Part shown: in pieces, positions 1 through 7,800 of the stretch
Position numbering within the stretch: the stretch's first letter is position 1
Layout: every line of letters starts with the position of its first letter
Assembly (NCBI RefSeq): GCF_026571515.1
Contig: NW_026853644.1
Coordinates: forward strand, 1 to 64,000
Source: Ruditapes philippinarum
Lineage: Eukaryota
Direction of reading: 5' to 3'
Length of the DNA: 64,000 nt
Translations under genes and position numbers: made by a program
The notes under the pieces: generated by a model
What the model saw: only the letters and a program-made list of their open reading frames with translations
What the model was told of the DNA's origin: nothing
Database searches by the model: none

Positions 1-2394
1 GGGACGTAACTTTGTTTACCCCACGTGCCAAATAGCGGGACCATTCGTAAAATAACGGATGTACCGACAAACGACACCTGCTGTCATAATATGAAAACAA
101 AATATTGCAACTCGCATTATGCTTACTGCCAACTGCTTAGTGCGTACTGTAACATGCGATTATAATAATGCTATCGTTGTCATCTTCGTTGTCAATGCGC
201 ACTGATCATGTCTTGCATTATATTTGTAATAAGTGAATATATGGCAGCATATGAATGCAAAGACACGTCAAATTCGCCCAAGTATTGATAAAAATCAATT
301 ATTTTTTGTGAAATAGTGTCGACAATATGTAAGTGGCAGATTTATAGCAAATTAAAGGTACTTTCAGGAACTTAATTAATTACCATTTAACATCTAGTTA
401 TATCAAGAACAAGCAAAGAATGTTATCTTAAACACCGAACATATTATACGCTGTCCTTAAAAAAGATGCAATTAAACATATAGCATATTAAAATATGTGA
501 GTTTAATGGTTCAGAAAGGAACACATGAAGTTGCGATTACATGATAGTGCATTCAGTAATCATAATGCATGACTGTATTCAGCAATACGTAGGTTTCCAT
601 TGTCATAAAGAAGTATAGAATCAAGCATAATGTAAGTCCAAAGATTGAATAAATGCACTAATTCTGTTCCATATTATTCGATTTACCCACAGACTTGTGT
701 GAAATTAATTCACATACTTTTTAACATTTTTCAATATTTTCAATTATTGTCATGCAAGCTTCAGTGTGTGGCAATACCACGTGACATTGACGTCATTTTC
801 GGCATCAATACCAAGACAAATGTTGCTCGATTCGGAAAAGAAAATAGCCGTAAATATGTTATTTCTGTACCAATTTCTTTGGGATATGCACCAGTCTACG
901 GGGGAAAAAATAAGCTTTCCACAGAATATTGGATCTTCGTCAGTTTATAAGCCGTTTTATCAAACACTTTGCATAACATTGGAAGTTGCTTGTATTAGAG
1001 CGGGCTTCAGTTGCAAGCTATTTCGTTTTCTGGCGTTATCTGGTCTACGCCATGATTAAAAAGTCAGGTTTACATCAACCGGGAGTACGGAAGGCAAAAC
1101 TCTACCTAAATATGTTCATATATATGAGCGGTATTATTATATATGGGCCTCGTTGAATGAAATAATAGTATGCTCTTTAGACTTTCACAATGTAATCTTA
1201 TATTCAAATCATACTGAATATGCACTCCTATAGGCCTATATATAGATCTATATTATAAATTTCGAGATTCGTTTTTTTTCACCGCCATTTACATTTTGTC
1301 ACACCTGAATTCCCTGTCTAAACCATAATAAAGTTTCCTTTTAAAAGGAAAGGCTTGCACAGTTGTGCCTTCATAAAGTGTTTATTTAGTTGTTTTTTTT
1401 TTCTTGTAAAAACGAATATTTTTTGTCAAAACAATTTGAAATCTATTCTCTATTGTATAAAACTTGTAAAGAAAATAATCAATCATAAAAATACTAACTA
1501 TTCTATCATACTGAAAAGGAAACAAGTGTGAACATTTCATTTCCAGAGAAATCATTCGTTTTGGCAGTTGCTAATTTCATTTATATAGCATCTTTATGGA
1601 CAAGTAAATGCACTAAAATACTTCGTTACGTGGTACCAATTAATAAGCATGTATCAACTATGTTACACAACCACAGATACGGTAAGGTTAATGATATGCA
1701 TGGGCTATTTTAAGATTACCTCACTGCGTTCATTAGATCTAAATATAACTCGATCATGCACTAATATTCTCTGTGATTTGGTAAGCAAGACCACCCTTTG
1801 GAGACGTAACCATCCTCTATTGTATAAGGTATATATGTTAATTAATATACAAAACTAATACAGACAAAAACAATTATAAAAGAAACTGACTTTTGCGTCT
1901 TGAAAAAGAATTGAAACGTAACAATTTCGTTTAATTTATTACGGTTTAAACCGATAAATCAAGTAAAAATAGAAATCCTATTTATATAAACAAACTGGGA
2001 TTACTGAAGTAACTAAAATAGCTTAGATTTCCGTAATATTACTTCGTCTGATTCCGCAGTATGACGGAATCGCCCGAATTGTCACGATTGCAATCGGAAC
2101 TACATCGGCTATAATCATTAAACCGAAGAGTGACGGAAAGGGCCAAAAAGTTGCGATTGGCACGATTGCAGTTGGTTTCTCGTTCAATCATGCGCTAACA
2201 AATGTAAGCAGGAAACCACCTAACCGGAACAAGTTTTCCAAAACAAATGGGCTTGCAGCCGTGCAGCCAAAAAATAAGTATGATGCGCAACATATAATAT
2301 CTATTTTTAGAATTAGCAATCGGATTTCCTCGTTCATTGCCGTATCGTACGGAAGCGTCCTGGTGCCAATTCATAATGTTCTATAAAAAAATAA

Positions 2395-2920
2395 ACTCCT
2401 ACGTAGGAGATAAAAAAGCCTAATTAGGAGTTTGTAACTCCTACGTAGGACTTTTAAACTCCTACGTAGGACTTACAAAGTCCTACGTAGGACTTTATAA
2501 CTCCTACGTAGGACTTTATAACTCCTACGTAGGAGATAAAAAAGCCTAATTAGGAGTTTATAAGTCCTACGTAGGACTTTTAAACTCCTACGTAGGACTT
2601 TTTAACTCCTACGTAGGACTTTATAACTCCTACGTAGGAGATAAAAAAGCCTAATTAGGAGTTTATAACTCCTACGTAGGACTTTTAAACTCCTACGTAG
2701 GACTTTATAAGTCCTACGTAGGACTTTATAACTCCTACGTAGGACTTTAAAACTCCTACGTAGGAGATAAAAAAGCCTAATTAGGAGTTTATAACTCCTA
2801 CGTAGGACTTTTAAACTCCTACGTAGGACTTTATAACTCCTACGTAGGACTTTTAAACTCCTACGTAGGACTTTTTAACTCCTACGTAGGACCTTATATC
2901 TCCTACGTAGGACTTTATGA
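2395..2920 (+). repeat. 21-bp tandem array (left arm), unit about CTCCTACGTAGGACTTTATAA
   Basis: About 25 units with palindromic core TCCTACGTAGGA and a periodic variant AAAAAGCCTAATTAGGAG. Confidence 0.95.
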
Positions 2921-2931
2921 CTTTATAAGAA

Positions 2932-3590
2932 TTGCATACAGAATGCTTTGCAAATCTCAACATTCCGGACCGGTATATCGGCGAAGGAACTAGACACTTA
3001 CCCCCCCCCCCCCTCAAATCTAAAATGTAGAGGACATTTCACCTTTGGTTCATACAGAATTTATTTAAGTTTGATTGTGTAGGAAGCTATAAGCTTATAG
3101 ACACACTTTCGAATCCGTTCCTGGAACCAACCAGTACGTACTTAGCAATGAGTGTAAAGTTTCTTACTCAAGGAAACAACGGCTTGCGCTTAACGGGGTT
3201 TGAACCCATGCGGCTAGCGATCATTAGGCTACTTGTCACACGGCCATGCCGCAACACTTCACCTTTTAATAAAGTGTCTCAGGTTTCTAGAGTGTACAGT
3301 GTCTTAGGGTGAGGTGTCTGTAAGCATTGGCGATGTATCCCGAAGAATTGCTTTACAGCTATTCGAAAAAAACTTACTCGACATCAAGCATATATATCAA
3401 AATTTTAAAAGGCTTTAGTGATTACGATTTCAATACGAACTAGCTGACCAAAACGAGCAATTTATCTATTTTCGGCCGTTTCAAATGATTAAATCCTTAT
3501 AGGGGGGGGGGGGGGGGGGTAGTGAAGTGTCTTGTTCCTGCTCCGTAAAGTTTAAGAAGATAACGGTTTGCGGAGCATTATGCATGCATA
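2932..3590. mobile_element. Degenerate nested MITE-like inverted repeat
   Basis: AGGAACTAGACACTTA-C(n) near 2985 pairs with G(n)-TAGTGAAGTGTCTTGTTCCT ending 3539. Weaker pairing between about 2932-2955 and 3565-3590. Confidence 0.5.
3095..3255 (-). mobile_element. tRNA-derived SINE remnant (CORE-like)
   Basis: On the minus strand, B-box GGGTTCAAACCCC followed by GTTGTTTCCTTGAGTAAGAAACTTTAC (CORE-like) and GTACTGGTTGGTTCCAGGAACGGATTCGA. Confidence 0.6.
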
Positions 3591-3792
3591 TGTTTAATAA
3601 TGAATTACATTGTATATCCTACTCTGAACAAAGTTTAACCCATACATTTTGTGTACATGTGTATAATAAATATAACTAAACGTACATAATACAGACTCAT
3701 CGTTTAATATATGCAGAGAATGACAAAATCATCTCTGGCTACAGACTAAAGGTATTTACTAAAGTGGCTTGCCACAATTACAACTTGACACA

Positions 3793-4026
3793 TATAAGCC
3801 GCGCCATGACAAAACCAACATTGTGGGTTTGCGACCAGCATGGATCCAGACCAGCCTGCGCATCCGCGCGGTCTGATCAGGATCCATGCTATTCGCTATC
3901 AGTTTCTCTACTTGTAAAAGGGTTTGTAAGCATGGATCCTGATCAGACTGCGCGGATGCGCAGGCTGGTCTGGATTCATGCTGGTCGCAAATGCACTATG
4001 TTGGTTTTGTCGTGGCGCGGCTCATA
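3793..4026. mobile_element. Palindromic MITE, copy 1
   Basis: Arms of about 100 bp (AGCCGCGCCATGACAAAACCAACA...GGATCCATGCT and reverse complement); further copies at 10860 and 30153. Confidence 0.85.
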
Positions 4027-4117
4027 TAATTTATTTTCCAACATAATATGCTATCTTAAGTTATACTCTAGCATACATGTCCGTCGAACTCTGTGCTTTC
4101 AGTTCTTTGATATGTAT

Positions 4118-4697
4118 TCTACGTAGGAGTTATAAAGTCCTACGTAGGAGTTTAAAAGTCCTACGTAGGAGTTACAAAGTCCTACGTAGGAGTTATAAAG
4201 TCCTAATTAGGCTTTTTTATCTCCTACGTAGGAGTTATAAAGTCCTACGTAGGAGTTTAAAAGTCCTACGTAGGAGTTATAAACTCCTAATTAGGCTTTT
4301 TTATCTCCTACGTAGGAGTTATAAAGTCCTACGTAGGAGTTACAAAGTCCTACGTAGGACTTATAAAGTCCTACGTAGGAGTTATAAAGTCCTACGTAGG
4401 ACTTACAAAGTCCTACGTAGGAGTTTAAAAGTCCTACGTAGGAGTTACAAACTCCTAATTAGGCTTTTTTATCTCCTACGTAGGAGTTATAAAGTCCTAC
4501 GTAGGAGTTATAAAGTCCTACGTAGGAGTTATAAAGTCCTACGTAGGAGTTTAAAAGTCCTACGTAGGAGTTATAAACTCCTAATTAGGCTTTTTTATCT
4601 CCTACGTAGGAGTTATAAAGTCCTACGTAGGACTTACAAAGTCCTACGTAGGAGTTACAAACTCCTAATTAGGCTTTTTTATCTCCTACGTAGGAGT
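4118..4697 (-). repeat. 21-bp tandem array (right arm, inverted copy)
   Basis: Reverse complement of the 2395-2920 array; it produces the spurious VLRRSYK-repeat ORF. Confidence 0.95.
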
Positions 4698-4838
4698 TTA
4701 TTTTTTTTATAGAACATTATGAATTGGCACCAGGACGCTTCCGTAGTATCGTTATAATAAGTACTTATAACTATTTCATTTAAGTACTAAAACTATTCTG
4801 TTTCCACGATTATTTACAGGCGTCACTTGCACAGAAGA

Positions 4839-7800
4839 ATGACAGAGCCAATAAGAAACCCAGATATCAAATTTACACAGGTAAGTGGAAAAAAACTTTT
4901 TAATTTCTCTCCTTGTAGGTTATTAATAATTGTGTGTACATTTTTTCTACTTTCAGTTTCATCAATGTTGATATCAGAACTAAACACACAGACGCTTGGG
5001 GTTTGGAGCTCAAAACGCCTTTAAAATCCAAATAAAATGCATATTTGTCAATCCCAGGACATGTACTGATCATATATATCAAAAAATCTTAATATATGCC
5101 GTTTTGAAAAAAAATCATATTTCAACATCTATAATAATACACAAGATAAAAATGTTCGCCGGAAAAAATCCGCACCCCTACCGTCATAATCACCATGTAT
5201 TTTAATCCATTTCCAATATTTTCACATAATCCTTTGGTCCATCGACACAGAAGATATAATTCTTCACGATGATGGTCAATTTTAAACTTCAACGGTAATA
5301 TAAACAACGCAACAGCCGTAATAAACATCAATATTCTCGCCGTTTTTTTTCAACGACAAAAACTTTCGATAAATTCAATGGACCAGACGGCTATGAACGA
5401 AGCTATCCGATTATGTGGCCCCAGCTTTGCCGTGTGCAAAATGCGCAGCGCTTTTAAGTTTGGGAACCACATAATCGGATAGCTTCGTTCATAGCCGTCT
5501 GGTCCATTGAATTTATCGAAAGTTTTTGTCGTTGAAAAAAAAACGGCGAGAATATTGATGTTTATTTCGGCTGTTGCGTTGTTTATATTACCGTTGAAGT
5601 TTAAAATTGACCATCATCGTGAAGAATTATATCTTCTGTGTCGATGGACCAAAGGATTATGTGAAAATATTGCAAATGGATTAAAATACATGGTGATTAT
5701 GACGGTAGGGGTGCGGATTTTTTCCGGCGAACATTTTTATCTTGTGTATTATTATAGATGTTGAAATATGATTTTTTTTCAAAACGGCATATATTAAGAT
5801 TTTTTGATATATATGATCAGTACATGTCCTGGGATTGACAAATATGCATTTTATTTGGATTTTAAAGGCGTTTTGAGCTCCAAACCCCAAGCGTCTGTGA
5901 CTAAACATATGTAAATCTCGCTTAAACATGTATATATTGTTAAAAAAAATAAATCATAAATCAATCGCATCATGTAGCCGAGGAGTTCTGATTGGTCTAA
6001 CGTCGGCACGGCCTATAGTATATTTTCGCCCTATATAATATCTGTGTCAATCATTATTGACCACCCAGATATTATATTGATACAGTTTGTGGCAAATCGG
6101 TGATATCCAGACACGTACGTGGGCCTCAGACCCTGTCAATCGTCTTGTTCCACCCATTAACTATTGCACGAATAGGCACTTATGGCAATCTCATTTATGT
6201 AAATTTTGTTTTGATACTATTTCAGCATGAATTGGAAGATAATAAACGCATTCCATTTTCCACAAACGCTCATTAAAGTTCTTCTTTAGCAAATGCAACA
6301 AGTATTCAAAAACGTTATGTGATAGTACCATGTGAATGTACCTTGTTAATGCATCAATTATACAATGTACAGTAAACATTAACAAACATTTTACTAATTC
6401 ATACATGTAACATAAATTAATCACTCTTCAGTGCCGTAGCCAGACCTGAACCCCCCCCCCCCACACACACAAAAAAAACGAAATAGAACGTGAAATGAAC
6501 ATGAACAGATGTATTGTCACATATAAGCCACCCATAAATTAATTGACATTGAAAATTAATTTATACCATAAGGTAATTAATATTCATATCATAAGTTAAT
6601 TGATATCATAAGTTAATTGACATTAAAACGTTAATTGACACGATAAGTTATTTTTTTTTAGAGAAGTTAATTGATAATATACTAGTTACTTGATTTCATA
6701 AGTTAATTGATATTATTAGTTAATAGATATTATAAATTTATTGATACATCATGAGTTAATTGATATTATAAGTAAACTGTTATCATAGGTTAATTGACAT
6801 TATAAGTTAATTGATATCATAAGTTAATTGACATCACATCATGAGTTAATTGATATTATAAGTTAATTGATATCATAAGTTAATTGACATCACATCATGA
6901 GTTAATTGATATTATAAGTTAATTTATATCATAAGGTAATTGACATCACATCATGAGTTAATTGATATCATAAGTTAATTGATATCATAAGTTAATTGAC
7001 ATCACATCATGAGTTAATTGATATCATAAATTAATTGATATCATACTTAATTGACATCACATCTTTTCAGACTCTTGTTTCAGATTTTCATCAATAATGA
7101 GTGGGTGAATAGTAAAAGTGGGCGTGTCTTCCCAACAATCAACCCATGTGACGGCAAGAAAATATGTGACGTACAGGAAGGTGACAAGGTATATTGCTTG
7201 TTAAATGTTTAGACTGAAAGCTTTGGAATAATTTTCTTTATTAAAGTCGCCATATGAATTATACTGTGTTGGTGCACTTAAACCCAACCCCAACCCATCC
7301 CAAAATCCCAACTCTGAAAAAATACCATTATTATAAAAAAAAACAAAAACAGTGCTTATTACAAAAAAAGAGTAAAAGATGGTCCAGATATATGGCATGT
7401 TAGTACTTTTTCCATGTTTTCAGAAAAATGTAACAGTTTTTGGGAAATGAAAATAATAGCATTTTTTAGTTTAATGGGCATTTAAATACATATGTGCTAT
7501 ATGCATGTTATCATAGATATTTATAGACACCCATTATATTTGTCATTTATGAAAATAGAATCAAACAAAACAGGATAAAAATATCAATGACTAGAGTTAA
7601 AAGAAAATTGTAATGATAATAATTACCTTATAATTGAAAACCCATCATGTTGTAAAAGTTACACCTTTGAAAGAAAGGCCTATGAGTTTTTTTCTGCGCT
7701 GTTCCTGACCAATTTAATTTAGAGATGCTTACTAATAAACACTTAACTATTCAAAATGTTTATTTTCACTGTGTCTTATTTTTACACAAATAAAGGCATC

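What the first reader, a model, noticed from the sequence alone, without database searches (positions are those of the whole stretch)
2342..4751. 2.4-kb foldback transposon whose arms are palindromic satellite arrays, ending 75 bp before the first ALDH coding exon
Seen: two inverted arms of about 570 and 630 bp, each a unique terminus of about 45 bp plus about 25 units of 21 bp built on the palindrome TCCTACGTAGGA, with a recurring CCTAATTAGG variant. A perfect 6-bp TSD GTATCG shows the whole unit inserted as one piece. The 1.2-kb interior holds older-looking DNA (a decayed inverted repeat, a SINE remnant, a MITE). Knowledge: TAY..RTA ends with a 6-bp TSD characterise the poorly studied IS3EU superfamily. 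Inference: the arrays are multimerised transposase sites, and the element may have captured host DNA as a composite transposon.
Basis: partly seen in the sequence, partly recalled or inferred. Interest (0 to 1): 0.7.

Follow-up and report, generated by a model that had tools for sequence, protein, structure and literature searches.

The report
IS3EU foldback transposon with autonomous partner
This is a young, gene-less jumping element with mirror-image arms of 21-base repeats, one of about 100 copies in a mollusc genome and missing from this spot in three other samples; it is likely moved by an intact 32-kb IS3EU transposon that has the same arms, and the repeats are predicted to be docking sites for its enzyme.

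Summary
Observation confirmed. Window 2348-4745 is a 2,398-bp element with TACGG..CCGTA ends, a GTATCG duplication and arms of 25 and 27 units of 21 bp. Its terminus has 184 exact matches in the genome, and 45 of 60 paired copies have perfect 6-bp duplications. The site is empty in 3 of 3 DNA runs laid. The interior was not captured here: 50 of 60 copies share it, and a more diverged subfamily lacks the MITE. A 31.7-kb element with the same arms and a 6-bp duplication carries an open IS3EU-type DDE transposase gene and a HECT gene, which supports the IS3EU call. A sister family (64% identical transposase) has related 21-bp arrays without the long palindrome, and its own foldback derivatives. 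A terminus motif next to an array precedes 10 of 20 related transposase genes (0 of 103 control tiles). Both genes start 35-110 bp inside the arrays. Transposase binding to the arrays is inferred, not shown. Foldback arms are known from the Mutator and P superfamilies; my searches found no paper on them in IS3EU. This scan noted IS3EU foldbacks and the HECT pairing before on other DNA. New variant of a known kind.

The parts
2342..2347 (.). left target-site duplication GTATCG
   Evidence: single copy at the empty site in 3 of 3 DNA runs
2348..2396 (+). unique terminus of left arm (TACGGAAG...), first 44 bp identical to both ends of the 31.7-kb autonomous element
2397..2922 (+). left array, 25 units of 21 bp, higher-order pattern (A B Cn)
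2923..4118 (.). family-wide non-coding interior; shares only the MITE with the autonomous element
2985..3539 (.). weak, decayed inverted repeat (arms 2985-3013 and 3507-3539)
   Evidence: E 8e-4
3044..3233 (.). fragment of an independent dispersed repeat (SINE label untested)
   Evidence: 3 copies outside the family at 74-83%
3795..4024 (.). palindromic MITE with TA duplication, absent from the more diverged subfamily
4119..4694 (-). right array, 27 units plus one partial unit of 21 bp
4695..4745 (-). unique terminus of right arm (...CTTCCGTA)
4746..4751 (.). right target-site duplication GTATCG
4820..4880 (+). neighbour, not part of the element: first coding exon of an ALDH1/2-class gene (acceptor AG 4818-4819, ATG 4839); further exons to about 16910

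Best explanation
The element is a gene-less foldback member of a family of about 100 copies with IS3EU-type ends; it is likely cut and pasted by the DDE transposase of a 31.7-kb element with the same arms, and its 21-bp arrays are predicted to be extra binding sites for that enzyme. Shown: ends, 6-bp duplications, family-wide interior, presence/absence at this site, one open transposase gene inside identical arms, and arrays directly inside the termini of several related families. Inferred: the transposase acts in trans, cleaves at the TA ends and joins them to a 6-bp staggered target (from the family's integrase-like DDE core). Units spaced by two helical turns would let several enzyme molecules load on one face of the DNA and so raise end recognition, as shown for Galileo and Muta1 (about 0.6 for this step). 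Unit number changes by slippage and crossing over between units. The interior is filler acquired once, into which a MITE later jumped, founding the dominant young subfamily.
For: 184 exact terminus matches, control 0. 45 of 60 paired copies with perfect 6-bp duplications, 4 more with one mismatch; 45 different hexamers among 46 when the autonomous copy is counted. Interiors of 31 full copies lie a median 2.3% from their consensus on a tree that looks star-like. Empty-site contigs in runs X1, X2 and X7, three samples of three studies. G000:C5854:27647-59307 has duplication CCATTG, the same unit types and identical first 44 bp, a two-exon 384-aa frame with D128, D187, E227 and a 996-bp GT-AG intron, Pfam rva_4 E 2e-31, and 49 of 70 core residues equal to IS3EU-1_DR1p by my own count from the supplement passage of PMC10045372. 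It is the only hit above 64% among 141 scored. Sister family: 21.7-kb element with transposase and HECT exons, 21-bp arrays, and 14 of 15 paired short copies with perfect 6-bp duplications; unit match 14 of 21, shuffle p about 0.01. Terminus motif plus array within 1.3 kb upstream of 10 of 20 related transposase genes, 0 of 103 control tiles. 1443 of 1546 unit spacings are exactly 21 bp. Precedent: PMC3688188 (abstract), PMC5499845 (passages).
Against: No binding or transposition was tested. Copies with only 6-7 units in an arm still have perfect duplications (L038, L048), so long arrays are either not needed or shrink after insertion. The terminus motif was derived from the same loci, and the 10 hits are about 5 families; 10 of 20 loci showed no terminus-plus-array within 1.3 kb. 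11 of 60 pairs have no clear duplication (some are mis-paired ends), and 17 of 77 loci examined gave no pair. The sister autonomous copy has no perfect duplication. Expression of the transposase was not tested, and the sister enzyme could be the mobiliser (17 of the first 20 terminal bases shared, from the sequences). The interior's donor was not found.
Confidence: 0.78

Rival explanations
1. Same family and mobiliser, but the arrays are mainly promoter or enhancer DNA bound by host factors, driving the two inward-facing genes; the gene-less copies merely inherit them.
For: In both autonomous elements the start codons of the transposase and of the HECT gene lie about 35-110 bp inside the arrays, leaving little other room for a promoter. 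In C5854 an extra inverted segment of about 70 bp with a TATAAAA lies between array and gene on both sides. TAATTA and ACGT cores resemble homeodomain and bZIP sites (recalled, from no call).
Against: Array sequences differ between families (7-bp, 21-bp, 42-bp units), as enzyme-specific sites would. The gene-less copies keep long arrays but not the inner TATA-containing segment. In three related families 200-650 bp separate array and start codon. Not exclusive with the best explanation.
Confidence: 0.2
2. The arrays are neutral minisatellite expansions of a subterminal motif and do nothing for transposition.
For: Unit number varies from 6 to 50 per arm; short-array copies exist; blocks of units are duplicated wholesale; array-only and rearranged copies are common.
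Against: Arrays keep the same position and polarity in both arms and in several families, a 21-bp period is held in 93% of spacings, and the unit is still recognisable between families whose transposases are 64% identical.
Confidence: 0.15
3. One reading: two short array elements flanked host DNA at this locus and moved it as one piece.
For: The interior is unrelated to the autonomous element except for the MITE, and array-only copies of 0.55-1.0 kb exist.
Against: The same interior is in 50 of 60 paired copies at unrelated sites; the empty site holds no interior DNA; no inner terminus faces the interior; one array-only copy, L032, reads as a deletion joined at the shared TAGG core. A single ancestral capture remains possible.
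Confidence: 0.04
4. Assembly artefact: the inverted arm is a fold-back chimera.
For: No contig of the filled allele was listed in the three DNA runs (35 pieces not shown).
Against: The arms differ in unit order and number, the duplication matches the single hexamer of the empty site, and dozens of loci have the same build.
Confidence: 0.01

Closest known systems
IS3EU / GingerRoot superfamily (PMC10045372 passages and supplement passages; PMC12730594 passages; PMC6839031 passages)
   Same: TA..TA ends, here exactly the TAYGG..CCRTA reported for rust-fungus IS3EU; 6-bp duplications; integrase-like DDE core close to IS3EU-1_DR1p and IS3EU-2_SK1p; relatives in oyster, fish and coral; foreign DNA carried inside (GingerRoot gene fragments).
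   Different: Described inverted repeats are over 30 bp (fungi) or 100-150 bp (clubmoss) with no arrays mentioned in the passages read; here the arms are about 0.6-0.75 kb and mostly tandem units. The autonomous copy is 31.7 kb against 3.9-12.9 kb for clubmoss GingerRoot, and carries an intron-rich HECT gene. Repbase entries themselves could not be read.
Foldback elements: Galileo (P superfamily; PMC3688188 abstract), Muta1 (Mutator; PMC5499845 passages), Tetris (PMC4079207 passages)
   Same: Long, internally repetitive inverted arms around a non-coding middle; variable unit number; many rearranged forms; for Galileo and Muta1 the repeats were shown to bind transposase or to raise excision.
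   Different: Those belong to the P and Mutator superfamilies (8-10-bp duplications for Tetris and Muta1); this one has a 6-bp duplication and an IS3EU enzyme. Unit 21 bp with a 12-bp palindrome, against 12 bp (Muta1) and about 220 bp (Tetris).
Oyster satellites CgiSat35 and CgiSat47 labelled DNA/IS3EU (PMC8268682, one table passage)
   Same: Tandem repeats linked to IS3EU in a bivalve.
   Different: Units of 690 and 129 bp; their position inside the elements is not given in the passage seen; not compared by sequence.

Membership tests
IS3EU/GingerRoot | termini TA..TA (TAYGG..CCRTA) | tested here: met
   TACGG..CCGTA in the window copy and the family; definition
IS3EU/GingerRoot | 6-bp target-site duplication | tested here: met
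   45 of 60 paired copies perfect; single hexamer at the empty site
IS3EU/GingerRoot | cognate integrase-like DDE transposase of the IS3EU lineage | tested here: met
   in the autonomous copy with identical ends: Pfam rva_4 E 2e-31, D128/D187/E227, 49 of 70 core residues equal to IS3EU-1_DR1p by eye; the window copy itself has no gene
IS3EU/GingerRoot | placement in the IS3EU/GingerRoot clade on a tree with reference proteins | not tested
   reference proteins were only read in a supplement; no tree was built
Foldback elements (structural class) | long inverted arms with a unique outer part and internal tandem repeats around a middle region | tested here: met
Foldback elements (structural class) | internal repeats bind the transposase or raise transposition | not testable with these tools
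   needs binding and excision assays; only indirect support
Mutator- or P-type foldbacks | 8-10-bp duplication and a MULE or THAP transposase | tested here: not met
   6-bp duplications; rva_4-type enzyme
Composite transposon formed at this locus | two complete elements flanking locus-specific host DNA | tested here: not met
   interior shared by 50 of 60 copies; no inner termini; empty site lacks it

The most novel reading that the evidence does not exclude
IS3EU arms are dual-use: helically phased, family-specific arrays are both the transposase's landing pads and the promoters of the inward-facing transposase and HECT genes, giving an IS-like self-repression loop. The hundred or so gene-less foldbacks would then scatter portable regulatory arrays, and the polymorphic copy just upstream of the ALDH1-class start codon would change that gene's expression.
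Probability: 0.15. Interest if true: 0.7.

Novelty: new variant of a known kind. Interest (0 to 1): 0.45.

Why it matters
IS3EU/GingerRoot is defined from sequence, and I saw no mechanistic study of it in my searches. This locus supplies a testable set: one open transposase gene, about 100 recent substrates, empty sites in other samples, and a sister family with related but distinct arrays for specificity swaps. It also adds an integrase-type superfamily to those (Mutator, P) reported to evolve foldback arms, which suggests arrayed ends are a recurring solution to end recognition in large genomes. The insertion is a presence/absence variant 74 bp from an ALDH exon; any effect on the gene is unknown.

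Tried and rejected
Donor locus of the interior: the 40 best-scored candidates gave family copies (all 20 fetched had arrays on at least one side). A 24-mer search gave 127 matches; 18 of 20 fetched were beside arrays, and the two without (L167, L168) are 91-95% identical pieces that look like truncated copies. No donor found. Gene conversion between the two arms of a copy: unit order was more alike within copies than between them (0.14 against 0.08, 30 copies, 0 of 10,000 permutations), but a length-fixed nucleotide test of the outer 220 bp was not significant (p 0.66 and 0.16, 31 copies), so inconclusive. Upstream ALDH exon and expression: RNA run X23 gave 0 reads on 4722-4984 (no test); run X21 on the left flank was swamped by a high-copy repeat. 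So intron versus promoter position is open; the acceptor-like sequence at 4818-4819 favours an intron. One search also did not show the empty site. A genome search with Pfam Aldedh did not list this contig among 15 matches (only 14 of 154 candidates scored); exon-level scans did. Array at L108 was dropped as a different repeat, since the same repeat lies far from the gene in L095. Paper searches for HECT with IS3EU/GingerRoot or with transposase and for foldback with integrase and 6-bp TSD found nothing relevant. No structure or complex prediction was run.

Full report
Observation. The window copy runs from 2348 to 4745 (2,398 bp) between two GTATCG hexamers and ends TACGG..CCGTA. Each arm is about 50 bp of unique terminus followed by 21-bp units: 25 left, 27 plus a partial one right. 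Most units carry the palindrome TCCTACGTAGGA; a CCTAATTAGG unit recurs after an A-rich unit, giving a higher-order pattern. The 9-bp spacer is asymmetric, so the arrays have a polarity, and it is mirrored between the arms. The first coding exon of an ALDH1/2-class gene begins at 4820, with ATG at 4839. In runs X1 and X2 a T>A change at 4828 makes an in-frame stop upstream of that ATG, which fits 4839 being the start. The organism is a mollusc by run labels; earlier notes call it a clam (untested).

Family. The terminal 31-mer has 184 exact matches in the 1.41-Gb assembly, control 0 (100 listed). I examined 77 loci (the window, 56 taken from those 100 listed matches, 20 from the interior search) and found both ends in 60. 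Of these 45 have a perfect 6-bp duplication, 4 differ at one base, and 11 have none or are mis-paired. The two central target positions are A/T in 83 of 92 symmetrised counts. Fifty of 60 carry at least 300 bp of the same interior; 31 full interiors lie a median 2.3% from their consensus. An interior 24-mer has 127 matches at up to 2 mismatches. The family therefore has on the order of 100 copies and spread recently.

History of the interior. It shares only the MITE with the autonomous element. A subfamily 86-88% identical to the window copy has the same interior without the MITE, with a single TA at the site (L151, L152, L155, L157). So the MITE most likely entered an existing member, which then founded the dominant subfamily. 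A piece at 3044-3233 belongs to an independent dispersed repeat (3 outside copies). No donor was found.

Polymorphism. Contigs of three DNA runs from three samples and three studies join the left flank through one GTATCG to the right flank, and account for all depth just behind the target. No filled allele was listed (35 pieces not shown; contigs show presence, not absence). This argues against mis-assembly and shows the insertion is not fixed.

Autonomous partner. G000:C5854:27647-59307 (31.7 kb) has the same ends, duplication CCATTG, the same unit types and identical first 44 bp. Just inside the right arm lies a two-exon gene for 384 residues with D128, D187, E227, Pfam rva_4 E 2e-31. Its core equals IS3EU-1_DR1p at 49 of 70 positions by my count from a supplement passage of PMC10045372. 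That paper gives TA..TA ends and usually 6-bp duplications for IS3EU (passages), and PMC12730594 gives TAYGG..CCRTA (passages). A convergent multi-exon HECT gene starts inside the left arm; its last exon matches Pfam HECT at E 3e-12. I did not verify its whole frame. No other copy of this transposase was found; the next hit is 64% identical (141 scored of 1039 candidates).

Are the arrays general? The 64% relative is a 21.7-kb element with transposase, HECT exons and 21-bp arrays in both arms; its ends have no perfect duplication. Its terminus has 20 exact matches; of 16 further loci fetched, 15 were paired and 14 had perfect 6-bp duplications, nearly all 1.0-1.7 kb and made almost wholly of arms. 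Its unit matches ours at 14 of 21 positions (shuffle p about 0.01) but keeps only a 6-bp dyad, so the 12-bp palindrome is special to this family. Among 20 related transposase loci chosen from the top of the 141, 10 have a terminus motif directly followed by an array within 1.3 kb upstream, against 0 of 103 control tiles. These are about five families with periods 7, 21 and 42, and the motif was derived from the same loci, so the contrast is inflated.

Mechanism. Shown: structure, family, partner, polymorphism. Inferred from the DDE family: trans-acting cut-and-paste with a 6-bp stagger. Inferred from position, polarity, a 21-bp period (1443 of 1546 spacings) and family specificity: arrays as extra transposase sites. 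Precedents are Galileo (PMC3688188, abstract) and Muta1, where more repeats gave more binding and excision (PMC5499845, passages). Against a strict need: copies with 6-7 units in an arm exist. A second role is suggested because all four genes of the two autonomous elements start about 35-110 bp inside an array, so the arms probably include the promoters. Neither role was tested. Homogenisation between arms was inconclusive.

What is known. Foldbacks are said to be mostly Mutator, with exceptions (PMC4079207, passages), or MULE and P (PMC5499845). Searches for IS3EU with subterminal or tandem repeats, foldback in bivalves, foldback with integrase and 6-bp TSD and HECT with transposons showed no paper describing IS3EU foldback arms or the HECT partner; I saw mostly listings, and Repbase entries are outside the library. 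An oyster satellitome table labels two satellites IS3EU (PMC8268682, passage). This scan has noted IS3EU with HECT many times and IS3EU-type foldbacks or arrayed ends on other DNA; these notes are unchecked. What this locus adds is the foldback family together with its cognate open transposase, a sister pair, and empty sites.

Verdict. Real, young, polymorphic non-autonomous IS3EU foldback; new variant of a known kind; interest 0.45.

Noticed in passing
window 4752-4764 (run X2): One empty allele lacks 13 bp directly behind the single GTATCG; an ordinary deletion or an imprecise excision scar.
   Followed up: no
window 600-2280: The left flank is itself a very high-copy repeat, with contig depths of 1e4-1e5 against about 40 in unique DNA.
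   Followed up: no
window about 4985-5900: A near-perfect palindrome of about 900 bp in the intron after the first ALDH coding exon, seen by eye; probably another foldback or MITE.
   Followed up: no
window 6554-7063: 17-bp tandem array with 56- and 90-bp higher-order periods in an ALDH intron.
   Followed up: no
L039 and L048 (G000:C1330, C3791): Same target hexamer and near-identical flanks but 1,389 versus 1,562 bp with different arms: probably two alleles of one insertion that changed after landing.
   Followed up: partly
L157, L159, L161, L155, L170; sister family L148: Family copies often sit inside or about 50 bp beside other copies of the same family; possible local hopping or self-targeting.
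   Followed up: partly
L042, L116, L169: Rearranged copies with a third array and duplicated or inverted interior or flank, as expected of unstable foldbacks.
   Followed up: partly
G000, 141 places: The genome holds many IS3EU-type transposase genes, a good number with open frames, in several families with different arrays.
   Followed up: partly
L146 (G000:C12641): A sister-family copy appears to have inserted into the same dispersed repeat that forms part of this element's interior (flank, judged by eye).
   Followed up: no
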